Shown here: piece after piece, positions 1-11,537 of the stretch | How positions within the stretch are numbered: the stretch's first letter is position 1 | Layout: each line of letters opens with the position of its first letter | Assembly (NCBI GenBank): GCA_964645485.1 | Contig: CAZXZO010000012.1 | Location: 39,509-51,045 of the forward strand | DNA: 11,537 nt | Reading direction: 5' to 3' | Origin: an uncultured Candidatus Poseidoniales archaeon | GTDB lineage: Archaea; Thermoplasmatota; Poseidoniia; Poseidoniales; Thalassarchaeaceae | Position numbers and translations under genes: made by a program | The notes under the pieces: generated by a model | What the model was told of the DNA's origin: nothing | Database searches by the model: none | Seen by the model: only the letters and a program-made list of their open reading frames with translations

Positions 1-74
1 ACTCCATCTTGTTGAAGGATTTCAGTGAGTTCCTCAACTCGGTCTTTCTTCCAACTAATTACTTTTGGAATCAT
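1..74 (-). CDS. rpl10: 50S ribosomal protein L10 (uL10/P0), 5' fragment running off the left edge
   Basis: Manual translation from ATG at 74-72 gives MIPKVISWKKDRVEELTEILQQDG, matching the archaeal P0 N-terminal pattern (WKxxxVEEL). The ATG overlaps the rpl1 stop (TGATG). SD GGAGGTG lies at 89-83. Position after rpl1 is the expected one. Confidence 0.85.
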   Translation of the reverse strand, partial: MIPKVISWKKDRVEELTEILQQDG

Positions 75-718
75 CAGACCAGCACCTCCACTTTGATAGC
101 AGGGCCCATGCTTGTCTTGATGTAAAGTGAACGAATATTGTCTGCGCCACGTTCTAACTTTGATGTGACTCGCTTCCACATTTCAAATGCGTTTTCAGAG
201 ATGTGTACTTCAGTTTGGCTTCTTGCCCCTACAACTGTGTGGAATGTGATTTTATCTCGACTACGAATAATTGCAGTGCTACCAAGACCATCTGCGATCA
301 TGCCAGGGTCAACATTAGGAGGTACAGGGCGGGGCATCTTACCACGAGGACCTAGAACGATACCAAGGAATCTACCTATTGTTGCCATATGTGGGACTTC
401 AGATAAGAAAAAGTCGTGCTTTCGTGCCAACTTTCGTGCTTTTTGCCGGTCTCCACCTAAATCCTCAATTTTGTTTGGGTCGATGACAACAATTCCTGCA
501 GCCTTTGCTTTGGTCGCCATTTCACCCTCAGCAAACATAGCAACGCTGATTTTTTTACCGCGGCCATGTGGGAGGCGGACATTTTCTTCAATTCTGTTTG
601 TTGGATTTTTTAAATCGACATCTTTGATGGTAAATGCCATCTCAATGCTCTCAACGAACTTTCTTTCTGGCGCTTCTCCAAGCGCTTTTCTTACTGCTTC
701 GGTAATTTGTTCTTCCAT
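74..718 (-). CDS. rpl1: 50S ribosomal protein L1
   Basis: 214 aa with typical L1 motifs (RKFVESIE, VDLKNP, LPHGRG, LGPRGKMP, KTSMGP). SD GGGGTGA at 731-725. Expected position between rpl11 and rpl10. Confidence 0.97.
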   Translation of the reverse strand: MEEQITEAVRKALGEAPERKFVESIEMAFTIKDVDLKNPTNRIEENVRLPHGRGKKISVAMFAEGEMATKAKAAGIVVIDPNKIEDLGGDRQKARKLARKHDFFLSEVPHMATIGRFLGIVLGPRGKMPRPVPPNVDPGMIADGLGSTAIIRSRDKITFHTVVGARSQTEVHISENAFEMWKRVTSKLERGADNIRSLYIKTSMGPAIKVEVLV

Positions 719-731
719 TTTTTCTCACCCC

Positions 732-760
732 TGCGGTCAGCGAGGTTTCCCTCTACCGCA
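732..760 (-). promoter_or_regulatory. Stem-loop with GAAA tetraloop (k-turn-like) between rpl11 and rpl1
   Basis: mRNA strand reads UGCGGU-A-GAGG-GAAA-CCUC-GCUG-ACCGCA. It has a 6-bp outer stem, a 4-bp inner stem and a GNRA loop, and ends one base before the rpl1 SD. The structure is read from sequence; the function is inferred. Confidence 0.55.
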
Positions 761-769
761 ACCCGTGTT

Positions 770-1075
770 TCAATTGAATTTGTCGTCATGATCTCCTGCT
801 TTCACCTGTTTAATGAATTCTTTTGGCACGATGCCTTCGATATGACAGCGCATAGATACACATGTTCCCATGACTTCTAATGAGCGTTGCTTGACACCTT
901 TACCAGACAAATCATCCGCTTTCTCTTTTGAGATAGTAATGATTTGGTCGAGTGTAATATTGTGAACTGATGGGTCTGAACCAACATCGGTTTCTCCTTC
1001 CCAAGAGCCGTTGAATTTGATGCCCTTACCAATAACTGCTGTGCGTATGCGTCGTGCAGTCCAGTTATCTGACAT
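770..1075 (-). CDS. rpl11: Ribosomal protein L11, C-terminal rRNA-binding domain only (101 aa)
   Basis: NITLDQIITISKEK...EVMGTCVSM...IEG...KAGDHD matches the archaeal L11 C-terminal domain. Canonical position between spt5 and rpl1. SD GAGGTGA (1086-1080) lies 4 nt before the ATG. Confidence 0.85.
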   Translation of the reverse strand: MSDNWTARRIRTAVIGKGIKFNGSWEGETDVGSDPSVHNITLDQIITISKEKADDLSGKGVKQRSLEVMGTCVSMRCHIEGIVPKEFIKQVKAGDHDDKFN

Positions 1076-1117
1076 TGATTCACCTCATTGTTTGGGTTTC
1101 GGCCGACCTGCTTCCCC

Positions 1118-1124
1118 TATTTAA
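1118..1124 (-). promoter_or_regulatory. Candidate TATA box upstream of rpl11
   Basis: TTAAATA on the minus strand in the spt5-rpl11 spacer. It would put a start site near 1095, about 20 nt before the ATG. Confidence 0.45.
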
Positions 1125-1149
1125 CCGCCGCGAGAACCCTATTGGGTAC

Positions 1150-2067
1150 TCAGACAACACGCTCCGTTACATGCACGTTGTCAGCACGCATTGTGATAGG
1201 GATTGGAACTGCTGCTTCGAATAACTCTACAGTAACCTCTTCTTTTCCTTCTTCGACTCCAGTTACACGGGCGCGATTTCCTTTGAAATGCCCAACTCTG
1301 ATTTCAACAACACTACCAACTTCTATTCCAGCAGTTGCCGATTTCGGCTCGAGATAATTGGAAACAACTCCTAATGGTGCTTCGCCTGGAAGAACTTTGG
1401 AACAACCACGCATTGGTGTAGTTACACCACCAGCACGTCCAATCAACTTCTCAACGTGGTGCTTTGCACTTGCTTCAACAAAGATATATCCGCGCATGAG
1501 TCGAGGATGAATGACTGAGAAAACTTCGCCTTGAACATCTCTCAGAGAGCCAGTTCCAGAAATACGTGCATGTATTTCATTAGCGATTTTCTGTTCTTGA
1601 CCAATTGTTGTTTTGAGCATGTAGAGGAAACTCGAGACATCCCCATACATATCCCCAAGTTGGGAAACCGTTGGTCGGGTTTGAATAGCGGAGATATCGT
1701 CATCTGAATTATCCATCTCATCAGGGCTCAAAACATTGAGATAACCAGGGTCAACCCACATTGCTTCATCGTAAAGGGTACGTGGCTCTATTTCTGAGGT
1801 GTCACTAACAAACAGAATAGGAGTAACCTCGTTTAGTCGGTTACCAAATTCAATTCCACGTGCATCTCCCATTCGAACTAAGGTTAGAGAGGATGATTGA
1901 ATACCTGTGGAGTCTTCAATTCTCATGAACACATGGTCAAGATCATTATGGTCTCCAACCCCGTAAACTCCATCCCAGCAATTTGCGAAATCGGTGACTT
2001 CCTCGCCACGCTTCAGCAAAAGTAATTTGTCTTCATGTCGAATAAAAACGATGAACCCATCAGACAT
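1150..2067 (-). CDS. spt5: Transcription elongation factor Spt5 (NusG family, NGN+KOW) with fused N-terminal Nudix-like domain, 305 aa
   Basis: The C-terminal ~160 aa have Spt5 motifs (KTTIGQE, RGYIFVEA, GSVVEIRVGHFKG..ARV, VTVEL...VPIPIT). The start is better placed at ATG 2067 (MSDGF...), which has GGAGGT at 2079-2074 and avoids overlap with secE. The listed 2109 start lies inside secE. Confidence 0.93.
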   Translation of the reverse strand: MSDGFIVFIRHEDKLLLLKRGEEVTDFANCWDGVYGVGDHNDLDHVFMRIEDSTGIQSSSLTLVRMGDARGIEFGNRLNEVTPILFVSDTSEIEPRTLYDEAMWVDPGYLNVLSPDEMDNSDDDISAIQTRPTVSQLGDMYGDVSSFLYMLKTTIGQEQKIANEIHARISGTGSLRDVQGEVFSVIHPRLMRGYIFVEASAKHHVEKLIGRAGGVTTPMRGCSKVLPGEAPLGVVSNYLEPKSATAGIEVGSVVEIRVGHFKGNRARVTGVEEGKEEVTVELFEAAVPIPITMRADNVHVTERVV

Positions 2068-2093
2068 TTTGAAACCTCCAATTCTAAATTTGT

Positions 2094-2357
2094 TTAACCA
2101 ATAAGCCAACGGAAGAATTTGGGTAATTCAGTATCCATTAGCCATAACATGACAAAGCCGATGAATCCAAGTACAAACATACCGATTCCACAAACCCAGA
2201 TAGTTTGTCTGAATTCCATTTTACTTGGTTTACGAGCCATTCGAATAATTCGAGCCCACGAACCACGACCAAAACTGCGAACCCATGTCTCAAACTGGTC
2301 TTGTCGAGCTTGAACTCGGTCCTCAAAGGACTTACTTGTAGAGTCTTCACTAGCCAT
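2094..2357 (-). CDS. secE: Protein translocase subunit SecE (Sec61-gamma)
   Basis: 87 aa with an amphipathic helix, the ARKPSxxEF motif and one C-terminal TM helix (GIGMFVLGFIGFVMLWL). Expected position between ftsZ and spt5. Confidence 0.92.
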   Translation of the reverse strand: MASEDSTSKSFEDRVQARQDQFETWVRSFGRGSWARIIRMARKPSKMEFRQTIWVCGIGMFVLGFIGFVMLWLMDTELPKFFRWLIG

Positions 2358-2418: not shown

Positions 2419-3555
2419 TCAATTGATGAATTCAAGACTACGATTACGCATTGTACGCATTTGTTGATGTGCGGTAGCGCCAAAAATTTGCTGGCTTTTT
2501 ACTCCGGTTAGAACTAACAAAACACGCAACTCATTGCCCATAGTTTGGTCAACCGTTGCACCCCAAATAATTCTAGCATAGGGGTTAATTCTCTCCCGTA
2601 TTTCTTGAGCACAGCGTTCTGCTTCTCCCAGTGTTAGTGATGGGCCACCGACCACATTTACCAGAGCACCGCGAGCATCGGAGATGTCAATGTCAAGAAG
2701 TGGTGAGGATAGGGCTTCTGCAGTTGCATCGATTGCACGTTCGTTGCCTGTTGCTTCTCCTAGGCCAATCATTGCCATTCCACCGCCATTCAGCATCACA
2801 CTTCTCAAATCTTCAAAGTCGAGGTTAACAAGACCTTCTTTGGTAATCATTTCTGTGACCCCAGCAATTGAACGCATGAGCAATTCATCGGCAACTCGGA
2901 AGGCTGCTTCGATTGGCAAATCTTTGACACCTTCAACTTCTAACAATTTTTCATTAGGGAGTACCACAACTGTATCACAAACTTCTCGTAATCTCTCCAA
3001 TCCCCATTCAGCATTTTGTCGGCGTAGTGTGCCTTCTGAAACAAATGGGTATGTCACGACTGCAATAGTGAGGGCGCCTGCTGCCTTTGCTAGTCTTGCG
3101 ACTACGTGTGCCGAGCCAGTTCCTGTGCCACCGCCAAGTCCTGCTGTGACAAAAGCAAGGTCGCAATCATCAACAATATTGACAAGCGTACGTTCTGATT
3201 CATAAGCGGCTTTCTCACCTTTTTCAGGATCTCCGCCAGCACCTCTGCCGCGAGCAGTTCTGCCAATCAGAATTTTTTTGTTAAGTTGTGAGCGAAGTAG
3301 GTGCTGGGCATCTGTGTTTACAGCATATCCAGAGATATGGTCTCCGGCCAACAATCCTTCATCTTCTAGGCGCTGAACAGTGTTACAACCGCACCCTCCG
3401 CATCCAAAAACTCGAATTCGAGGTGCTAAACTTGCTAATAATTCTACTAATTCCTCATCGCCTTGATTAGACACACCCTTAGTCTCCTCTTCGTTTTCTG
3501 GCAAGGATTTTTCATCCTCTTGTAGTTCTAACACGCGGTCAATTAAATGGCGCAT
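2419..3555 (-). CDS. ftsZ: Cell division GTPase FtsZ (FtsZ1-type by gene context)
   Basis: 378 aa with the tubulin/FtsZ signature AGLGGGTGTG, plus VNTDAQHL, GRGAGGDPEKG and a T7 loop NLDFED. It has the acidic N-terminal extension typical of archaeal FtsZ and lies next to secE-spt5. Confidence 0.98.
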   Translation of the reverse strand: MRHLIDRVLELQEDEKSLPENEEETKGVSNQGDEELVELLASLAPRIRVFGCGGCGCNTVQRLEDEGLLAGDHISGYAVNTDAQHLLRSQLNKKILIGRTARGRGAGGDPEKGEKAAYESERTLVNIVDDCDLAFVTAGLGGGTGTGSAHVVARLAKAAGALTIAVVTYPFVSEGTLRRQNAEWGLERLREVCDTVVVLPNEKLLEVEGVKDLPIEAAFRVADELLMRSIAGVTEMITKEGLVNLDFEDLRSVMLNGGGMAMIGLGEATGNERAIDATAEALSSPLLDIDISDARGALVNVVGGPSLTLGEAERCAQEIRERINPYARIIWGATVDQTMGNELRVLLVLTGVKSQQIFGATAHQQMRTMRNRSLEFIN

Positions 3556-3583: not shown

Positions 3584-3717
3584 CCTTGACGCTCGGTTTG
3601 GGGTTGCTCAAGTGGGTTCGCGCACCCCTTCGGAATTGCCGAAAATAGAGAAAGTCCTCCCTTTAGGGAGGTCATTTAGCCCGAAGGTCAAAGTGTGAGG
3701 GCTTATGTCGGGGCTTG

Positions 3718-6700
3718 ATGAAGTCTAAGTCGCTACTTCTTGTAATTATTCTAATTGTCTCTTCACAGTCAATATTTTTCAGTTCTGAAATCCCAACAAT
3801 TGCTGAATTAGATGAGGGCGAACCGATGTCGCAATCAGTGGCCAGTCAATGGCAGATGACTGACGCACCAACCATCCAATCAGGTTGGTCAGCGAATACT
3901 TGGCAACCAGACCCGAAGGGCCCACTTTGGGACTTAGATTTCAGTCCTGATGCAACTAAGATTGCGGGAGTTGAAATTTCAGATAACAGACTCTTTGTTT
4001 GGAATATCTCTGACGGCAGAGTTTTACTTTGGATTCATCATTCGGCTGCGATTGTAGATGTTGTCTGGCTTTCTGATGAATGGGTGTTGGTTGCAGATTC
4101 TGGAACAAATTGGTATTCATATCATGTTGTGGACAATGGTTCTTCTACTCCTCATACATCTACCGCCATGCGTTCAGGTCAATGGAGTGATGGCTTAACT
4201 GGCACATATAACGGGTTTCTGTGGGGGCTTGATGCCTCATTGAATCATTCAAAGGTGGCATTTTGTGGTAACATCAACCAGATGAATATGGGTGGAGAAA
4301 TTGTCATTGCAGATTTAGCCCACTTCATTGATGGTTCACCACCCAATGTGCAACATTTCTTCCCGCAGTATTGGTCGGTAGATTGTGCAATTTCACCTAG
4401 TGGTTCAATGGTTGCTGCAATCGGTCGCAATTTAACGACGTATTCCGATGGTAATGTCACTTACCGAGATGTTGTATACGGTGTTGATGTTGCAACGGGT
4501 GGACTTCAATGGGAACGATTTGTTGGTGGTGATAATTCAAGTGCCTGGGCAGTAACTTGGGAACCGGGTGGAGGAAGTTACACCATAGCATACAATCACC
4601 CACTTCCAAGTCAACCAAATGTTTGGGAGGGTGTTGCAACCGCTTACGCTGAGGCTGATGGCTCGGTATTTTGGTATTCACCAATACCCCAAAATGTCAG
4701 TAGTCTTAGATGGCTTCCAGACGGATCTTACCTTGGAGTCGGATTATACGACCCCGGAAGGATTTCATTCATTGATACTGCAGGGCAAATTCAAACTGAT
4801 TTTGGATGGCATGCCGTAAAGTCAGGCTTATCTTCACTTCCAGAGGATATAACCGCGGTAACTACAGCTACGATTCCTGCTCAAACCACAGCAAATCAAT
4901 TGATGGCCTCCGCTGGTCGTGATGGTGCAATTGAGATTTGGAAAATTGATGTCACCACTTTTGAAATTCTCCCTTATAGGAGATTAGGCCCCGCCCATGT
5001 GAGAGAAATTGCTAGTCATCCAATTCTTGATTTAGTCGCTATAGCCGACTCATCAGGAGTGGTAACCGTGCGCGCCGAAAACGGTTCAATTGACCGTCAG
5101 TGTTTCCATCCCGAGTTTGGTATGGTGGTTTATGAAATTCCTTATGCTAAATCTGTTGACTGGATAAATGATGATGCGATAGTAGCGTTCAGTGATGGGG
5201 TAATTATTGCTTGTAATGAATTCAGTAAGTGGTCCTGGACTTTTGACTTAAGAGACCACAAAACGGTTGGTGCCTTTGGAAGAATTGCGATGCATCAAAC
5301 CAGCAATTATGCAGCAATATCTTGGTCATCTAATACTCTCAATACATCATTGGATGGGCACGTTGCAATAATTGAGCCAATGTCTGGACAATTTTTCAAC
5401 GAATGGCAGTACGCAGAATCTCATTGGACAATGGCATTCAATGATTTTGGAACAATCTTGGCGTCGGTAGGACAAACTGGGGATGTAAGATTGTGGAACA
5501 CTAGTGACCCAAATCCACAGAACTGGATGGATGATGGTTCACCTTACTCGCACAATGGATATGTTGGGGTTACGGAATGGATGCCCGGGGCTGACTTGTT
5601 AGTAACCGCAGGTTGGGATAAGCAACTAATCATGTGGGATGTTCAAAGCCAATCTCAAATGCAACAAATTACTTTGGGCCAAGAAGCGTTTGCATTCGCG
5701 GAATTACTTAATGAAGGTGAGATTGTTATCGCAACTGGTAACGCGCAAAATTCACTTTCAGGACAGTTGGAATTCTATGATATCCAAAATAGCACTTTAG
5801 TCAATACTTACCAGGTTAATCATATTCCTCGCGGTTTAGATGTATTACCTAGTGGCCAGGCTCTAGTTGTGGTGAATCATTCAGGAACTATGTTAGTTCT
5901 CAAGCAGGATGCAGATGGAGATGGGTGGATAGATGTTGATGATGATTTTCCAAATGACCCAACTCAACACCAGGATACTGATGGTGATGGCTGGGGGGAT
6001 GACCAAACTCAGCCCAATGGTGATGATTGTCTAAACACACAGGGGAGTAGTTACCAAGATAGAAATGGATGCCCTGATAGTGATGGAGATGGTTATAGTG
6101 ATGCAGACGCCACTTGGCTTGCTCACCCTCTTGGTGCCGCTGATGCGTTTCCAAACATGCCTACACAATGGCGTGATACTGATGGGGATGGTCACGGTGA
6201 TGAGTACTCCTTCACTGTGGATAACGATGGTCTACGGGTTGGCGAATCCGGTGATGCGTTCATCAATGATTCATCTCAATATCGCGATTTAGATGGGGAT
6301 GGATGTGGTGATAATTACACCTATGGTGATGACAATGGGATGCGAATAAATGAAGCCGGAGATGCATTCGTCTCAGACCCCACACAATGCAATGATTTTG
6401 ATGGTGATGGATATGGTGATAACTACACTTTCACATTAGATACAGGAGGTTTACGAGTTGAGGCAGGAGATGCCTTCCCAAGTGATAACATGGCGTGGTC
6501 TGACTTAGACGGAGATGGTTGCCCTACTAGTTCTGCAACCGGTCTTGCAATCGACCTATATCCTACAGATAGCGAAAATTGTGACGAAGAATTACCATTT
6601 TGGTTGCCGGTTAATTTAGCACTATTGATTTCAAATGATGCCTCATCATGGTACCTAGATATCTCATGGGATTCTGCTGCAGACAATACCGATATCATTC

Positions 6701-7398
6701 GGTTAGAATATGCATTGAATAATGAAACATCAAGCCCAATTGATTCGCAATATGTTGCGATTCAAGTTTGGACTTCAACCGATGCTGTCAATGAGAATTT
6801 GAGTATTAATCCGGTTACGGGAAATAATTTCCTTCACATTAGATTGACTGGAGTCCCTGATGACGGTGCTTCAATTAGTCGAAATTGGACCTCAGTTTGG
6901 GTTGTATACTCAATTGGTGATGGCACAAATCAAAATGGTTCAGAAAATGGTACTAATAACAACCCTGATTCAGATGGAGATGGTGTAATTGATTCAATGG
7001 ATAATTGTCCTAATGAGCATGGGACGATAGCGAATCAAGGATGCCCAGCGACAGATGATACATCTAATCAGACTGGCAATGAGGAAACTAATCTAGATGA
7101 CGAACCAGCCGAAACTGCTGGAATCTGGTATGCGTTAATTGCGGCAATGATTGCAGCAATTGCTATCCTAGCAGTTATGGGGATACGGTATAATCGCAAG
7201 ACAGATAAGATTGTAGAAGGAGTCCATTCAATGGCCCAACCTGATTCCTTTGCCCCACCTTCAACACCACCATCTCCAAACGTGCATTTGCCTTGCAAAA
7301 TGTGTGGAGGATTTGTTCAAGAAGTGATGCATCAAGGAAATCTGTGGACTTGGTGCCCATCTTGTAGGGAATGGCAAGATTTCCTCGGGAAGAAATAA
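3718..7398 (+). CDS. Large single-pass surface protein: signal peptide, 14 WD40-like blades, thrombospondin type 3-like Ca-binding repeats, beta-rich domain, TM helix, cytoplasmic Zn ribbon
   Basis: N-terminal MKSKSLLLVIILIVSS signal (ATG at 3718; the ORF track starts at TTG 3715). WD-like repeats such as LMASAGRDGAIEIWKI and LVTAGWDKQLIMWDV; eight DxDGDG motifs; TM GIWYALIAAMIAAIAILAVMGI (7120-7185); CKMC-x16-CPSC near the C-terminus. Confidence 0.9.
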   Translation: MKSKSLLLVIILIVSSQSIFFSSEIPTIAELDEGEPMSQSVASQWQMTDAPTIQSGWSANTWQPDPKGPLWDLDFSPDATKIAGVEISDNRLFVWNISDGRVLLWIHHSAAIVDVVWLSDEWVLVADSGTNWYSYHVVDNGSSTPHTSTAMRSGQWSDGLTGTYNGFLWGLDASLNHSKVAFCGNINQMNMGGEIVIADLAHFIDGSPPNVQHFFPQYWSVDCAISPSGSMVAAIGRNLTTYSDGNVTYRDVVYGVDVATGGLQWERFVGGDNSSAWAVTWEPGGGSYTIAYNHPLPSQPNVWEGVATAYAEADGSVFWYSPIPQNVSSLRWLPDGSYLGVGLYDPGRISFIDTAGQIQTDFGWHAVKSGLSSLPEDITAVTTATIPAQTTANQLMASAGRDGAIEIWKIDVTTFEILPYRRLGPAHVREIASHPILDLVAIADSSGVVTVRAENGSIDRQCFHPEFGMVVYEIPYAKSVDWINDDAIVAFSDGVIIACNEFSKWSWTFDLRDHKTVGAFGRIAMHQTSNYAAISWSSNTLNTSLDGHVAIIEPMSGQFFNEWQYAESHWTMAFNDFGTILASVGQTGDVRLWNTSDPNPQNWMDDGSPYSHNGYVGVTEWMPGADLLVTAGWDKQLIMWDVQSQSQMQQITLGQEAFAFAELLNEGEIVIATGNAQNSLSGQLEFYDIQNSTLVNTYQVNHIPRGLDVLPSGQALVVVNHSGTMLVLKQDADGDGWIDVDDDFPNDPTQHQDTDGDGWGDDQTQPNGDDCLNTQGSSYQDRNGCPDSDGDGYSDADATWLAHPLGAADAFPNMPTQWRDTDGDGHGDEYSFTVDNDGLRVGESGDAFINDSSQYRDLDGDGCGDNYTYGDDNGMRINEAGDAFVSDPTQCNDFDGDGYGDNYTFTLDTGGLRVEAGDAFPSDNMAWSDLDGDGCPTSSATGLAIDLYPTDSENCDEELPFWLPVNLALLISNDASSWYLDISWDSAADNTDIIRLEYALNNETSSPIDSQYVAIQVWTSTDAVNENLSINPVTGNNFLHIRLTGVPDDGASISRNWTSVWVVYSIGDGTNQNGSENGTNNNPDSDGDGVIDSMDNCPNEHGTIANQGCPATDDTSNQTGNEETNLDDEPAETAGIWYALIAAMIAAIAILAVMGIRYNRKTDKIVEGVHSMAQPDSFAPPSTPPSPNVHLPCKMCGGFVQEVMHQGNLWTWCPSCREWQDFLGKK
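5908..6525 (+). repeat. Protein-level DxDGDG (TSP3-like) calcium-binding repeat array
   Basis: Seven motifs occur in this interval (DADGDG, DTDGDG, DSDGDG, DTDGDG, DLDGDG, DFDGDG, DLDGDG), most followed by D-x-F/C. An eighth lies at 6967-6984. Confidence 0.85.
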
Positions 7399-7421: not shown

Positions 7422-8207
7422 TTAGCGACTAGATTGTGAATATTCATGGTAGTCTACAGTAGGTTGGAGTGAGTCAATAGCAGTTTGAAGTTTAGCACTC
7501 GCCGCTTGTTCTCCAGATTCGATTGATGCGATTTGCTTGCGTATTGATTGCAGTCTAATAGAGAGAGAGTTAGCCACATCCTGTTTTAGTTCGGATGATG
7601 GTTGGATCCAACGTTCTAAAGAGGTGGTGACTTTTTCGACGGATGTTGTGAGCCCACTACTTGAAATGAGAATAAATTCACCTTTCTCAAGATTAACTGG
7701 CCCACATTCTCCGAGTGCATTTTCCAATTTTTTTGCAACTTTTGTTGCTCTCTTTAACGAACCTTTGCATTTTTCAAATGCTTCTACAGAAAGCAGATGA
7801 GCCTCGATATGACCAGTTTTTGCTGCTGTTGAAAACCCATTCAATGCCTTCTTCAAATTACCAATTTGTAAATGTAATCTTCCCATTTGCATAGAATCTT
7901 CAATTTTTAGCGCGGCTTCTGTACCATCTCCAATAAGACCTTCCTTTGCTCTCATTTGAGTTAGTTTAGTGGATTCTTTTGACAAGGTTTTGGCTGCTTT
8001 CATACTCAATTTCCACTTTTGTCTAATTTCTAGAATGTTAGCATGATCTCGCAAAGCGAGTACCAACAGTTCTTGCTTCTGAATTGTTCTCTTCTTTTCG
8101 GATAACAAAAGAGATGTTAACTCCTCAGCCATCACTTCTGAAATTTCTAAACGACCATCAGCAACATAATTTCGTAACTGATTTAGAACTTTGACCGGGT
8201 CATCCAT
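7422..8207 (-). CDS. Hypothetical alpha-helical protein (TPR-like segment, C-terminal coiled coil), about 261 aa
   Basis: Uninterrupted ORF filling the gap between the two large genes, with no signal peptide or TM segment. MGRLHLQIGNLKKALNGFSTA fits a TPR helix pattern. The start is uncertain: GTG 8225, TTG 8216 or ATG 8207. SD GAGGTGA at 8228-8222 favours TTG 8216 or ATG 8207. Confidence 0.75.
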   Translation of the reverse strand: MDDPVKVLNQLRNYVADGRLEISEVMAEELTSLLLSEKKRTIQKQELLVLALRDHANILEIRQKWKLSMKAAKTLSKESTKLTQMRAKEGLIGDGTEAALKIEDSMQMGRLHLQIGNLKKALNGFSTAAKTGHIEAHLLSVEAFEKCKGSLKRATKVAKKLENALGECGPVNLEKGEFILISSSGLTTSVEKVTTSLERWIQPSSELKQDVANSLSIRLQSIRKQIASIESGEQAASAKLQTAIDSLQPTVDYHEYSQSSR

Positions 8208-8309
8208 GCCAAACAAAAGCCTCACCTCACCATGCGAGAGTAGCCATCACGCATTACCACTCCTGTTCTTCGTGTTGTGGAGAGATATACAGAAGAGTAT
8301 TGATAAAAC

Positions 8310-11300
8310 TCAATTTCGGCGTTTTACTGCTCGGCGCTTTGGTTTTTTCTTAGATGTTGGTCGACGTTTCTTCGGTTTCCTCTTTTTCGGGGCTTCCTCT
8401 TCATCATCATCATCATCACCCCAATCATCGTCATCATCAAAGTCATCGTCATCATCAGAGTCCTCATCATCGAAGTCATCTTCCTCTTCTTCGACAACAG
8501 CCTTCTTTCGGCGCTTCTTCTTGTCTGCTTTGTCGGTAGCGAATGGGTCATCTTCATCGTCTAGTGTTTTGGTTTCCTTTGGTCCTTCAAGTTCTGCTAA
8601 GCCAGCATCGGCAGCATCACCTGAACCACCACCATCTCCACCACCCATGAATTCCATCATCCAATCATCTTCTTCGTCAAACTCATCGTCACCCTTCTTC
8701 TTCTTGGATGGGTCTTGAGCCGCTAGTACACCCATCATGATTGCAAAGAATAGTAGTAACAAGTTGAAGGCTGCAACTGCGATGATGATTACGTAAGGTG
8801 GGCTAGTTAGAGAAATTGGGGCCTCAGGCTCCTTTTCACCTTCATTGAATGGGCTGTTACCGCTTTGACAGAGAGTGATTCCACTGATATTTTCAAAACA
8901 GTGGTCTACATAGAAGGTGGTTGTGAATAATTTTTCATTACCCGCAGAATCTTTTGCCATGATTTTCAATATGTGATTCCCTGGGTCTTCAAATGTTGAT
9001 GCAGGTTCTGTCATGCTGAATACTATAGTGTTTGAAGGTGCTCCAAGTGGGGTGATGTCAGTGACGTTCTCCCATTCAAATTCCTCATTGAAAAATTCTC
9101 CCACATTAGTGAATTGGTATTTTACTTCAACAAGTCCAACGTCATCGGTGACGACACCATGAATTTTGATCTCAGTACCATAAAGATACTTGCTTGAAGA
9201 AGATGGTGAAAATAACTCGATAGTTGGTGATTTTGAATCAACTGACCAATTCGTTACAATGAAAGATTGTGAATTTCCAACAATGTCAACCAATGTAGCA
9301 GTGATTGTGACGTTATTTGTATCCATTCCATTTGGAATTGGGAAATCCCAAATGAAGTGAGTATCTGATGCTAAGAATGGTGTGGCGCGTGTAACTTCAC
9401 CTTCTGGAGTGAAGGTAGTGCCAATCGCTGAACCCTCAATGTAGTCCTCTGTATGTACTTGAATCATGGGGAATTCCTCTAGTGGCTCTCCACTATGAAT
9501 ATGCAATCGGTAATCCCCACTCTTGAGTGGTCCACCTGCCATTCCTTCTTCTCCTCCAATGCCGAGTAAAATTTCTACTTCAGGAGGTGTGGTGTCTTCA
9601 TGAACAAGCCAGACGTTGGAACGGTTTGTGACAGAATCTCTTGAATTACCCCATGAATCTGCAATAATAAGGGCATACCAAGCATGGCGGTCTAAGTCCT
9701 CTTCAAGAGATAATTCACGTAAAATTGTGGTTTCAGATGGCAGCGGTAGATAACTGTCAATCATTAATTCCCAGCCCTCGTCATCGGACAAGTTCCCAGT
9801 TTCATTATTTTCAAATGGTGAACCAAGATGACGCCAGATTGAGTAAGTTTCATCCTCTTCAGCCAAGGAATTAATCCAAGATAATAAAATGCTATTTTGG
9901 CCACCTTGAAGCATAGGTTGTGCTAGTTGTACTGGGGCAGGTGGTAGCGTATCTTCACGCAATGACAATTGTATACAATTTTGGATGAAGCGTGTATCTT
10001 CATATGTTGCATTGAGATGATTGTATCTAGAAACTGAGGTTATGCAGTAATAAGAAAGCCTGTCCTTATCTGGTGGAACTGGAACTAACGCGTATTCAAC
10101 ACCATCGGGTACTGTTGCTGCAAGGGTTGCTTCAAGAGTGAGATTACTCGCTGCTGAAAGTTTAGTCCAAGAGTGCCAGATGTGATAATACTCACCTTCT
10201 GCACCCATTTGGTCAGTCCAAGTGACATTTGTCCACCCTCCACCCACATATTCGGCTTGAACATTGGTTGGTTCTGCTACCCATGGGTCGAACGCATTCT
10301 CCATGATAGGCCCGGCTATAGATGAAGGTTGAACTGTGCTGTTGTGATTACCCCTCGCATCAGCGGCGGTTACTGCATAGTATGCATATCCTAGAGTCCC
10401 TCTCTCAACTTCATAGCGGTAGGTAGTAACACCAGAAGGAACCACAGCGATATGTTCGATGTTTGGATCTAAAGTGTCATTGAATGGTGCACCTGATCGC
10501 CATACATGATACATGGCACCAACTTCTTCGGGAATGTCAACCCAGGTTATTGTTGTATTTCCTGTGCCACCAAGTGATTCTGCTATGAACGACGCGTCAA
10601 CGCCTCCAACATTGATAGGAGCGACATTATCTTCAGCAACAGGGAAATCCGCATCCATGGTGTTAACACCTCCAATAAACCGAGTATCTTCGTAACCAAG
10701 ATATGAGTAAGTTACGGAATAATATGCATTTACATCAGTGTCAGGAGGGACATCATATGATGTGCTTGAAACGCCAGCAGGTTCGCTCGCAATCAATGTT
10801 TTTTGCATCCCAAACCAACTCGCTCTCGTGGCTGGAGAAAGGTGTCGATAAATGTTAGAGATGTAGGCATTCGGACCTGTCTCGAGCAATGTGCCAGGTT
10901 GGAGTTGGTTCAGATTAATCCAATCTATTTTTGTTCTACTCGTTTCTGGATAAAATGTAGCATTTACCCCAAAAGGTGCGGTAATATCGTGTGTATTTTC
11001 GGGTATCGGGTCAGGAATATGAGAATATCCTAACTCCATGAATGCCTTGATTGAACCATCTGCTAGTTGAGTAGCCACACCATAATAGAAGGTGCCATTG
11101 ATTCCTGGGGGTAATGGGTGGTTGACTGAATGTTGCTGACCGGGACAACTGACGACATTCCCAGTGCAAGCAGAGATGTTAGCAATGTAAGGTATGCTTC
11201 CATTTTGAATAATGCTAGAATTCATCTGAGATGCACTACGATATACAAGGTACCTGCTTGTCTGAAGCATTTGCGCAATTGTCAAATTTTGCGTTTGAAC

Positions 11301-11480
11301 ATTTTCCCAAATTACAGCAGTTGATTCAGTAAATTCATCAAAAATTGCTTCAATGTTCTGGGCTTGCATATCTTGTGGTGAGGCCTGATCTGCGTCAACC
11401 ACAGGTACGAAAGGTAGCGCAGAAACTAGTAACATGAGTGCAGTTATTAGAATTGATTTACTCTTCAAAATACAGCGCAC
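8310..11480 (-). CDS. Large single-pass surface glycoprotein: signal peptide, five FN3-like repeats, Ig-like domains, TM helix, acidic/basic cytoplasmic tail
   Basis: Signal KSKSILITALMLLVSALPFVPVVDA; repeated P-x-N-V-x-A...T-x-[IV]-x-W...Y-x-[VI]-[WY]-R units; DSKSPTI / DSAGN Ig-like motifs; TM VIIIAVAAFNLLLLFFAIMMGVLAA (8792-8718); many N-x-S/T sequons. The start is probably GTG 11480 (GGAGG 8 nt upstream) rather than TTG 11486 (2 nt from that SD). Confidence 0.9.
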   Translation of the reverse strand: MRCILKSKSILITALMLLVSALPFVPVVDADQASPQDMQAQNIEAIFDEFTESTAVIWENVQTQNLTIAQMLQTSRYLVYRSASQMNSSIIQNGSIPYIANISACTGNVVSCPGQQHSVNHPLPPGINGTFYYGVATQLADGSIKAFMELGYSHIPDPIPENTHDITAPFGVNATFYPETSRTKIDWINLNQLQPGTLLETGPNAYISNIYRHLSPATRASWFGMQKTLIASEPAGVSSTSYDVPPDTDVNAYYSVTYSYLGYEDTRFIGGVNTMDADFPVAEDNVAPINVGGVDASFIAESLGGTGNTTITWVDIPEEVGAMYHVWRSGAPFNDTLDPNIEHIAVVPSGVTTYRYEVERGTLGYAYYAVTAADARGNHNSTVQPSSIAGPIMENAFDPWVAEPTNVQAEYVGGGWTNVTWTDQMGAEGEYYHIWHSWTKLSAASNLTLEATLAATVPDGVEYALVPVPPDKDRLSYYCITSVSRYNHLNATYEDTRFIQNCIQLSLREDTLPPAPVQLAQPMLQGGQNSILLSWINSLAEEDETYSIWRHLGSPFENNETGNLSDDEGWELMIDSYLPLPSETTILRELSLEEDLDRHAWYALIIADSWGNSRDSVTNRSNVWLVHEDTTPPEVEILLGIGGEEGMAGGPLKSGDYRLHIHSGEPLEEFPMIQVHTEDYIEGSAIGTTFTPEGEVTRATPFLASDTHFIWDFPIPNGMDTNNVTITATLVDIVGNSQSFIVTNWSVDSKSPTIELFSPSSSSKYLYGTEIKIHGVVTDDVGLVEVKYQFTNVGEFFNEEFEWENVTDITPLGAPSNTIVFSMTEPASTFEDPGNHILKIMAKDSAGNEKLFTTTFYVDHCFENISGITLCQSGNSPFNEGEKEPEAPISLTSPPYVIIIAVAAFNLLLLFFAIMMGVLAAQDPSKKKKGDDEFDEEDDWMMEFMGGGDGGGSGDAADAGLAELEGPKETKTLDDEDDPFATDKADKKKRRKKAVVEEEEDDFDDEDSDDDDDFDDDDDWGDDDDDEEEAPKKRKPKKRRPTSKKKPKRRAVKRRN
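8394..8492 (+). repeat. Low-complexity (TCA/TCG/TCT)n trinucleotide tract encoding poly-Asp/Glu on the minus strand
   Basis: Runs such as TCATCATCATCATCATCA. On the minus strand, 28 of 33 codons are D or E. Confidence 0.85.
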
Positions 11481-11537
11481 GCTCAATCCCTCCGTAAAGG
11501 GGGGTGGTAACGAAGCGGTTATGAGGCTGACGCATTG

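What the first reader, a model, noticed from the sequence alone, without database searches (positions are those of the whole stretch)
770..1086. Ribosomal protein L11 lacking its whole N-terminal domain at the canonical locus
Seen in sequence: 101 aa starting MSDNWTARRIRTAV, with a strong SD. An in-frame TGA lies four codons upstream, and only 74 nt separate the gene from spt5. The GGKA.PGPP.GP proline-rich N-terminal domain therefore cannot be encoded here, and I found no such motif in any ORF of the window. The ORF is otherwise intact and keeps the EVMGTCVSM rRNA-contact region. It has a short insertion (FNGSWEGETDVG), and the usual SMG reads SMR. Established: full archaeal L11 is about 160 aa; its N-terminal domain contacts translational GTPases and the stalk and forms part of the thiostrepton site. 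Inference: either this lineage has a remodelled GTPase-associated centre, possibly thiopeptide-insensitive, or this is a CTD-only paralogue that could compete for the 23S site with a full-length copy elsewhere.
Basis: partly seen in the sequence, partly recalled or inferred. Interest (0 to 1): 0.7.

Follow-up and report, generated by a model that had tools for sequence, protein, structure and literature searches.

The report
Ribosomal protein uL11 lacking N-domain
This marine archaeon (Marine Group II, Poseidoniales), like every relative sampled in its order, encodes only the rRNA-anchoring half of the universal ribosomal protein uL11, so these abundant plankton probably translate without the half that normally touches translation factors and forms the thiopeptide antibiotic pocket.

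Summary
ORF 773-1075(-) encodes a 101-aa protein that is the C-terminal rRNA-binding domain of uL11 and nothing else. It begins at the inter-domain linker and sits in the canonical secE-spt5-L11-L1-P0 cluster.

It is neither an assembly error nor a paralogue:
- No L11_N domain was found in six-frame searches of this genome.
- None was found in any Poseidoniales genome sampled, closed genomes included.
- Sister families of the same class and 97% of other sampled Thermoplasmatota keep a full-length L11 of about 156 aa.
- The short forms are one clade, so one ancient loss is the simplest reading.
- Within the genus, dN/dS is 0.06, the same as for neighbouring L1.

The factor-binding platform is otherwise canonical. 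23S H43/H44 keeps the A1067 and A1095 equivalents, and P0 and P1 are normal in a closed relative. One rRNA change (E. coli U1083 to G) and an SMG-to-SMR change in L11 are fixed on the same branch.

Loss of thiopeptide sensitivity and altered factor docking are inferences.

I found no paper describing this. The scan has reported it before on other MGII genomes. I also saw CTD-only L11 genes in a few small-genome archaea. I class it as a new variant of a known protein, with moderately high interest.

The parts
770..1075 (-). uL11 gene reduced to the C-terminal rRNA-binding domain (101 aa; stop codon at 770-772)
   Evidence: - ORF list.
- Pfam PF00298 only.
- PDB sequence matches to residues 69-158 of archaeal L11.
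- AF2 model whose best Foldseek hit is M. jannaschii L11, 5d8h_C, TMq 0.71.
- Alignment A1 shows the protein starts at the inter-domain linker.
1080..1086 (-). Shine-Dalgarno GAGGTGA, 4 nt upstream of the ATG
   Evidence: Read from the sequence. GGAGG/GAGGTG-like motifs precede the same start codon in orthologues across the order.
1085..1087 (-). In-frame TGA four codons upstream of the start, which caps the reading frame at 104 codons
   Evidence: Read from the sequence. The open frame is 104 aa in 19 of the 22 same-genus genomes in the match table, own included (116 aa in two, 103 aa in one).
1076..1149 (-). 74-nt spt5-L11 intergenic spacer, too short to encode the 65-residue N-terminal domain
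   Evidence: The six-frame HMM search for L11_N finds nothing anywhere in the genome.
1150..2109 (-). Context: spt5 with a long N-terminal extension (NGN domain starts at residue 162, KOW at 264). It is the canonical upstream neighbour of L11.
   Evidence: Pfam PF03439 and PF00467.
74..718 (-). Context: uL1 gene, the canonical downstream neighbour. It served as the selection control.
   Evidence: Pfam PF00687, E = 1.6e-43. dN/dS is 0.065 over the same genome pairs.
1..73 (-). Context: first 24 codons of P0 (uL10). The rest is cut off by a run of about 100 N in the assembly just before the window.
   Evidence: The full canonical 338-aa P0 is seen in closed relative G026.

Best explanation
This is the sole, functional uL11 gene of a Marine Group II (Poseidoniales, Thalassarchaeaceae) archaeon. 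An ancestor of the whole order deleted the roughly 65-residue N-terminal domain cleanly at the inter-domain hinge and gained a new start codon there.

Shown: the remaining domain has the canonical L11 C-terminal fold and sequence signature. Inferred: it binds the conserved 23S H43/H44 element beside P0 and stabilises that rRNA fold. The laboratory fragment L11-C76 is known to do this on its own.

Inferred: translation factors are recruited and activated by the remaining parts of the centre, namely the P0(P1)n stalk, H43/H44 and the sarcin-ricin loop. They do this without the mobile N-domain that in other organisms touches EF-G/aEF2, release and rescue factors and the tRNA elbow.

Inferred: because that N-domain forms one wall of the thiostrepton/micrococcin pocket, these ribosomes probably bind thiopeptides poorly.

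The confidence given applies to the core claim (sole, selected, order-wide CTD-only uL11). The mechanistic inferences are less certain, roughly 0.5-0.6.
For: Domain content and locus
- The ORF carries PF00298 only, in the secE-spt5-L11-L1-P0 order.
- It aligns to residues 69-158 of solved archaeal L11.
- The AF2 model matches M. jannaschii L11 (5d8h_C, TMq 0.71).

Sole copy
- PF00298 hits only this ORF in the genome, and PF03946 hits nothing at E <= 1.
- The sister-order N-domain used as a protein query finds nothing at E <= 10 in five MGII genomes, two of them single-contig.

Order-wide
- 0 of 41 relatives are over the L11_N cut-off.
- Short open frames of 92-143 aa occur in 40 of 41 relatives.
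- At class level, f1 is 0/38 and f3 is 0/58, against sister f4 20/22 and f5 2/2.
- At phylum level, 219 of 301 genomes have L11_N. Nearly all misses are f1 (0/24) and f3 (0/50).
- Among the 80 best public loci, 76 are short and come from Poseidoniales MAGs or single-cell genomes.

Clean hinge deletion
- MPKPWTS / MSDNWTA aligns with GTPPAAS of the sister order.

Single origin
- The short forms are one clade, SH-aLRT 99.

Selection
- dN/dS median is 0.06 over 187 pairs. It equals L1 (0.065) over the same pairs, with a lower dN.

Partner elements conserved
- H43/H44 keeps the A1067 and A1095 equivalents.
- P0 and P1 are canonical in G026.

Thiopeptide relevance
- Solved entry 5D8H is the M. jannaschii stalk base with thiostrepton (title only).
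Against: - No expression, proteomic or ribosome-structure data were available to me. Incorporation into the ribosome is inferred.
- The own genome is only 82% complete. Absence of an N-domain gene rests mainly on the relatives, including closed genomes.
- A replacement protein with no sequence similarity to L11_N cannot be excluded by HMM searches.
- Between families the domain is unusually divergent: 30% identity against 63% for L1 in the same genome pair. The tree also has long inner branches. Constraint has therefore changed at times.
- Thiopeptide insensitivity and altered factor docking were not tested.
Confidence: 0.9

Rival explanations
1. It is a CTD-only paralogue, and a full-length uL11 is encoded elsewhere in the genome.
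For: The own genome is 82% complete, so a second gene could lie in the unassembled part.
Against: - PF00298 has one hit in the genome, and it lies at the canonical locus.
- No L11_N was found in any Poseidoniales genome searched, including single-contig G026 and G081 and many genomes more than 95% complete.
- Each relative shows one match to this protein.
Confidence: 0.02
2. It is an assembly or binning artefact, or a decaying pseudogene whose 5' part was lost.
For: The scaffold has a run of about 100 N some 700 nt downstream, inside P0, so this assembly is not flawless.
Against: - The same start, frame cap and length appear in 19 of 22 same-genus genomes, and equivalent short genes appear across three families.
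- They occur in MAGs from many studies and in single-cell genomes.
- dN/dS is 0.06, equal to L1.
- A Shine-Dalgarno motif is conserved before the start.
Confidence: 0.01
3. The N-domain's job is supplied in trans by an unrecognisably divergent or unrelated protein, or by a change in P0, aEF2 or rRNA. On this reading the centre is functionally complete, only built differently.
For: - One rRNA substitution (E. coli U1083 equivalent to G) is fixed on the same branch as the loss. G occurs in 48 genomes, all Poseidoniales. U occurs in 5 genomes, all from sister families.
- The Gly-to-Arg change in the SMG motif and the KGSG-to-CNGS loop change are also order-specific.
Against: - P0 and P1 show ordinary domain content and length.
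- The weak L11_N-like hits in relatives lie off-frame inside other genes.
- The co-occurring changes are one shared branch, that is one event, so they are not evidence of coupling.
- No candidate replacement protein was identified.
Confidence: 0.15
4. The loss was driven by selection for resistance to thiopeptide antibiotics made by marine bacteria, rather than by neutral loss of a dispensable domain.
For: From established knowledge, thiostrepton and micrococcin bind between the L11 N-domain and H43/H44, and N-domain mutations give resistance in bacteria and haloarchaea. PDB 5D8H shows thiostrepton on an archaeal stalk base (title).
Against: - Nothing in the sequence data speaks to the selective cause.
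- The rRNA positions that also give resistance (A1067 and A1095 equivalents) are unchanged.
- CTD-only L11 also occurs in small-genome archaea from other settings. That fits dispensability at least as well.
Confidence: 0.2

Closest known systems
Canonical archaeal uL11 (L11P; Pfam PF03946 + PF00298), e.g. M. jannaschii L11 (PDB 5COL, 5D8H), P. furiosus (4V6U chain BH), H. marismortui (1S72 chain I)
   Same: - Same C-terminal domain by sequence: profile E = 2e-25 to 7e-22 over chain residues 66-70 to 155-158.
- Same fold.
- Same archaeal C-terminal tail (..G.YD..F) and same GTC motif.
- Same gene neighbourhood.
   Different: - The whole N-terminal domain of about 65 residues is absent.
- SMG reads SMR.
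- The KGSG loop reads CNGS or FNGS.
- This genus has an extra 8-residue loop insertion.
L11-C76, the laboratory C-terminal fragment of bacterial L11 used for the L11-rRNA complex (PDB 1HC8, 1ACI/1FOW series)
   Same: It covers the same domain boundaries. The order's profile matches positions 7-75 of the 76-residue fragment. From established knowledge, this fragment alone binds and stabilises the 58-nt rRNA domain.
   Different: That fragment is an engineered piece of a two-domain protein. Here the fragment is the natural, complete gene product of a whole order, and it carries the archaeal C-terminal extension.
uL11 of the sister families in the same class (f4 and f5; by my inference the Marine Group III relatives)
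   Same: They are the closest full-length relatives. The C-terminal domain is 33-40% identical to the window protein. At least one of these genomes (G062) shares the H44 U-A stem pair with MGII.
   Different: - They are 156 aa with an intact L11_N, 86 bits.
- They read SMG.
- Their 23S has U at the position equivalent to E. coli 1083.
CTD-only L11 genes in other uncultured small-genome archaea (loci L147, L151, L148; genomes G359, G417, G464)
   Same: PF00298 only, starting at the linker, with no room for an N-domain. Spt5 overlaps the L11 start in L147 and L151. G359 has no L11_N anywhere in its genome.
   Different: - They are unrelated lineages, and the loss is narrow: 77 of 81 genomes in that class and 25 of 31 in that family keep L11_N.
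- They keep SMG.
- Several carry a 50-100 residue Lys/Glu-rich C-terminal tail.
- In G359 the gene sits after L29 instead of after spt5.

Membership tests
uL11 (ribosomal protein L11/L12e) | C-terminal rRNA-binding domain (Pfam PF00298) | tested here: met
   28 bits against a cut-off of 21.4 for the window protein. 40 bits over profile positions 2-68 for orthologue G026. PDB profile hits are all L11.
uL11 (ribosomal protein L11/L12e) | N-terminal factor-contacting domain (Pfam PF03946) on the same polypeptide | tested here: not met
   It is absent from the ORF, from the genome in six frames and from all Poseidoniales genomes sampled. The positive control worked in 14 of 14 reference genomes.
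uL11 (ribosomal protein L11/L12e) | Three-dimensional fold of the L11 C-terminal domain | tested here: met
   AF2 model with pLDDT 71. The loop at residues 17-32 has low confidence. The top Foldseek PDB hits are all uL11 chains; the best is 5d8h_C, TMq 0.71, E = 3.5e-5.
uL11 (ribosomal protein L11/L12e) | Position in the conserved archaeal secE-spt5-L11-L1-P0-P1 cluster, as a single copy | tested here: met
   Gene order in the window and in G026. There is a single PF00298 hit in the genome.
uL11 (ribosomal protein L11/L12e) | Cognate rRNA site (23S H43/H44, E. coli 1051-1108) present and conserved | tested here: met
   The own 23S fragment aligns to the archaeal LSU model through H43/H44, with the GCUUAGAAGCAGCC and GUAACA loops intact.
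uL11 (ribosomal protein L11/L12e) | Physical presence in the 50S subunit at the stalk base | not testable with these tools
   No proteomic or structural data are available for this uncultured lineage.
Thiopeptide (thiostrepton/micrococcin) target site | Cleft between the proline-rich L11 N-domain helix and the A1067/A1095 rRNA loops | tested here: not met
   The rRNA half is present. The protein half is absent. The functional consequence is not testable here.

The most novel reading that the evidence does not exclude
Poseidoniales ribosomes run elongation, termination and rescue on a GTPase-associated centre that has no uL11 N-domain. This state would be compensated by co-fixed changes, such as the 23S U1083-equivalent to G substitution, SMG to SMR in uL11, or changes not yet examined in aEF2, aRF1 or aPelota. 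It would make one of the ocean's most abundant archaeal groups intrinsically insensitive to thiopeptides. Together with independent losses in small-genome archaea, it would show that the 'universal' N-domain is a dispensable accessory of the archaeal ribosome.
Probability: 0.3. Interest if true: 0.8.

Novelty: new variant of a known kind. Interest (0 to 1): 0.6.

Why it matters
- uL11 is treated as a universal two-domain protein. Its N-domain is central to current pictures of how translational GTPases, release and rescue factors and thiopeptide antibiotics engage the ribosome.
- A whole, globally abundant, free-living order that lacks the N-domain under strong purifying selection is a natural deletion experiment. 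It says which contacts are dispensable in archaeal translation.
- It predicts intrinsic thiopeptide tolerance.
- It gives concrete constructs to test in model archaea.
- There is also a practical side. PF03946 is one of the 43 marker genes that CheckM extracts (PMC7024585). It will therefore be systematically missing from MGII genomes. By my inference this depresses completeness estimates and leaves gaps in marker alignments.

Tried and rejected
- Weak L11_N hits in relatives (E = 0.03-0.8). On inspection, the ones I examined lie on alternative frames inside unrelated genes, for example a ketopantoate-reductase-like gene. I treat them as noise.
- Co-loss of the L11 methyltransferase PrmA (PF06325). 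Every genome matches only the generic SAM-methyltransferase core (profile positions about 150-233), in MGII and sister families alike. The test is uninformative.
- My first rRNA pattern search failed. The cause is a compensatory G-C to U-A pair in H44. That pair is also present in a sister-class genome with full-length L11, so it predates the loss and is not linked to it.
- The search for homologous proteins returned only 11 near-identical proteins.
- The ESM Atlas returned eukaryotic PF00298-only clusters, probably partial gene models. Neither result helped.
- P0039, a 93-aa 'CTD-only' protein with SMR, looked like a possible intermediate. It is a full-length L11 with an in-frame TAG near the domain border, split by the gene caller.
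- The whole-window Rfam scan found nothing.
- Eight literature searches found no description of a natural N-domain-less L11.
- I could not test the earlier scan note that Aeropyrum has the same trait.

Full report
**1. What is in the window**

On the minus strand the window carries these genes:

| Coordinates | Gene |
|---|---|
| 2419-3555 | ftsZ |
| 2094-2357 | secE |
| 1150-2109 | spt5 with a long N-terminal extension |
| 770-1075 | the ORF in question |
| 74-718 | uL1 |
| up to 73 | first 24 codons of P0 |

The ORF is 101 aa. Its ATG (1075-1073) follows GAGGTGA (1080-1086). An in-frame TGA lies four codons upstream (1085-1087). Only 74 nt separate it from the spt5 stop codon.

**2. What the protein is**

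- Pfam finds only the L11 RNA-binding domain, PF00298.
- Against PDB sequences, the protein and the profile of its orthologues match residues 69-158 of archaeal L11, which is the C-terminal domain. The chains are P. furiosus 4V6U, M. jannaschii 5COL/5D8H and H. marismortui 1S72.
- The profile also matches the engineered fragment L11-C76 (1HC8, 1ACI) end to end.
- An AlphaFold2 model (pLDDT 71) has a low-confidence loop at residues 17-32. That loop holds the genus-specific insertion.
- The model retrieves only uL11 chains from the PDB. The best is 5d8h_C, TMq 0.71.
- Aligned with the 156-aa L11 of sister families, the short proteins begin exactly at the inter-domain hinge: MSDNWTA / MPKPWTS against GTPPAAS. 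They lack the preceding 65 residues.

**3. Not a paralogue, not an artefact**

- In the window's own genome (1.94 Mb, 55 contigs, 82% complete), PF00298 hits only this ORF. PF03946 (L11_N) hits nothing at E <= 1 in six frames, while the control rings in 14 of 14 reference genomes.
- Among 40 relatives from three families of the same order, none reaches the L11_N cut-off. The sub-threshold hits I inspected are off-frame noise.
- 39 of those 40 have one short L11 gene in an open frame of 92-143 aa.
- The sister-order N-domain used as a protein query finds nothing at E <= 10 in five MGII genomes, two of which are single contigs.
- Public records name these organisms Candidatus Thalassarchaeaceae, Poseidoniales or Marine Group II. 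They include MAGs from many projects and single-cell genomes.
- 76 of the 80 best loci are short. The four full-length ones come from other lineages and read SMG.

**4. Phylogenetic extent**

- Class level: families f1 (0/38) and f3 (0/58) lack L11_N. Sister families f4 (20/22) and f5 (2/2) have it.
- Phylum level: 219 of 301 genomes have it. Apart from f1 (0/24) and f3 (0/50), only a handful of incomplete MAGs lack it.
- On a tree of the C-terminal domain the short forms are one clade (SH-aLRT 99), so a single loss suffices.

**5. Selection**

- Within the genus, Nei-Gojobori dN/dS has a median of 0.06 over 187 usable pairs.
- Over the same genome pairs it is 0.062 for L11 and 0.065 for neighbouring L1. 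L11 has the lower dN.
- Between families the domain is more divergent than L1: 30% against 63% identity for G000 versus G026. The tree shows long inner branches.
- I read this as episodic change after the loss, followed by tight constraint.

**6. The rest of the GTPase-associated centre**

- The genome's partial 23S rRNA aligns to the archaeal LSU model through H43/H44.
- The loops carrying the A1067 and A1095 equivalents are unchanged.
- A G-C to U-A swap in the H44 stem is shared with a sister-class genome that has full-length L11, so it predates the loss.
- One substitution tracks the loss perfectly among assembled 23S genes of the class, at the position equivalent to E. coli U1083:

| Base at 1083-equivalent | Genomes | Distribution |
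|---|---|---|
| G | 48 | all Poseidoniales; sister families 0/45 |
| U | 5 | all sister families; Poseidoniales 0/176 |

- This is one shared branch. It is a candidate co-adaptation, not evidence of coupling.
- P0 (338 aa; L10 domain, archaeal insertion domain and acidic tail) and P1 are canonical in the closed relative G026.
- In the window's own assembly P0 is interrupted by a run of about 100 N.
- Order-specific protein changes are SMG to SMR (82 of 82 distinct short sequences) and KGSG to CNGS or FNGS.

**7. How it most likely works**

Shown: the gene is intact, it is the sole copy, it is selected, and it encodes a complete L11 C-terminal domain next to a conserved rRNA site.

From established knowledge:
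- That domain alone binds and stabilises the 58-nt rRNA element.
- The N-domain is a mobile module that contacts EF-G/EF2, release and rescue factors and the tRNA elbow.
- The N-domain supplies the protein wall of the thiopeptide pocket.
- L11 is dispensable for viability in E. coli and yeast, at a growth cost.

Inferred:
- MGII ribosomes anchor H43/H44 with the half-protein.
- They rely on the P stalk, the rRNA and the sarcin-ricin loop for factor recruitment and activation.
- They probably bind thiopeptides poorly.

**8. Prior knowledge**

Eight full-text searches found no description of a natural N-domain-less uL11.

The scan itself has reported the same trait on other MGII genomes, with the same conclusion. 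My tests were run independently of those notes. I could not test it.

**9. Wider context, found in passing**

A profile search of 1.84 billion representatives returned many short L11-like proteins.
- One I checked is a gene-calling artefact (L146, in-frame TAG).
- Others are real CTD-only genes in uncultured small-genome archaea:
  - In L147 and L151, spt5 overlaps the start of a PF00298-only L11 with a Lys/Glu-rich tail.
  - In L148, a 253-nt stretch with no called gene (two stop codons in the frame I tried) precedes a 94-aa CTD-only L11.
  - Genome G359 (1.0 Mb) has a 93-aa L11 after L29 and no L11_N anywhere.
  - Two relatives, G417 and G464, are alike.
  - 77 of 81 genomes of that class and 25 of 31 of that family keep the N-domain.
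- Loss of the N-domain therefore recurs in archaea. Poseidoniales is the only large, order-level case I saw.

**10. Verdict**

The 'lineage-wide' reading is supported and the 'paralogue' reading is rejected. This is a new variant of a known protein, of moderately high interest, with clear experiments available.

Noticed in passing
window 1150-2109 (-): The only spt5 gene here has about 160 extra N-terminal residues before the NGN domain (NGN at 162-225, KOW at 264-295). An earlier scan note reads the extension as a degenerate Nudix domain conserved across the order.
   Followed up: no
window 715-775 (-), hairpin about 732-760: The L11-L1 spacer folds into a stable hairpin just upstream of the L1 Shine-Dalgarno motif (-17.7 kcal/mol, z = -2.45). 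There is no Rfam match. It could be an L1 autoregulatory mRNA site or a k-turn-like element, as another first-reader note suggests.
   Followed up: partly
G000:C12, just before window position 1 (locus L062, about 2909-3010): A run of about 100 N interrupts the P0 gene, so this assembly shows only 24 N-terminal and about 137 C-terminal residues of P0. The closed relative G026 has a normal 338-aa P0. It is a scaffold gap or a withheld stretch, not biology.
   Followed up: yes
23S rRNA: L051 (G000:C6) about 770-788, and 47 other Poseidoniales genomes: The position equivalent to E. coli U1083, in the small 1082-1086 hairpin of the GTPase-associated centre, is G in every assembled Poseidoniales 23S (48 genomes). 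It is U in the sister families (5 genomes). It was fixed on the same branch as the L11 N-domain loss.
   Followed up: partly
L147:2501-2926, L151:2001-2489, L148:2001-2285, L149:2001-2282 (G359), L152 (G464), L153 (G417): CTD-only L11 genes occur in other uncultured archaea with small genomes. Some carry 50-100 residue Lys/Glu-rich C-terminal tails, and one lineage has the gene relocated behind L29. G359 has no L11_N in its genome, while most of its class (77/81) keeps it.
   Followed up: partly
L146:180-650: A Logan metagenome contig carries a full L11 with an in-frame TAG one codon before the VGVPP hinge, so gene callers split it into a 62-aa N-domain and a 93-aa C-domain. Its C-domain reads SMR like MGII. 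It could be a read error, a pseudogene or a recoded TAG.
   Followed up: partly
window 3715-7398 (+) and 8310-11486 (-): There are two very large predicted surface proteins (1227 and 1058 aa), each with an N-terminal hydrophobic leader and a single C-terminal transmembrane segment. The first has many DxDGDG calcium-binding-like repeats and ends in a CxxC...CxxC motif. The second ends in a 135-aa tail of alternating acidic and basic blocks.
   Followed up: no
window 7422-8225 (-): A 267-aa ORF with no Pfam match at E <= 0.01.
   Followed up: no
L097 (CAXRAI010000037.1): A contig labelled as a Salinimicrobium sp. MAG (a bacterium, from my own knowledge of the genus) carries an MGII-type short L11 (MAKPWTAE..AMR). 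The contig is probably mis-binned.
   Followed up: no
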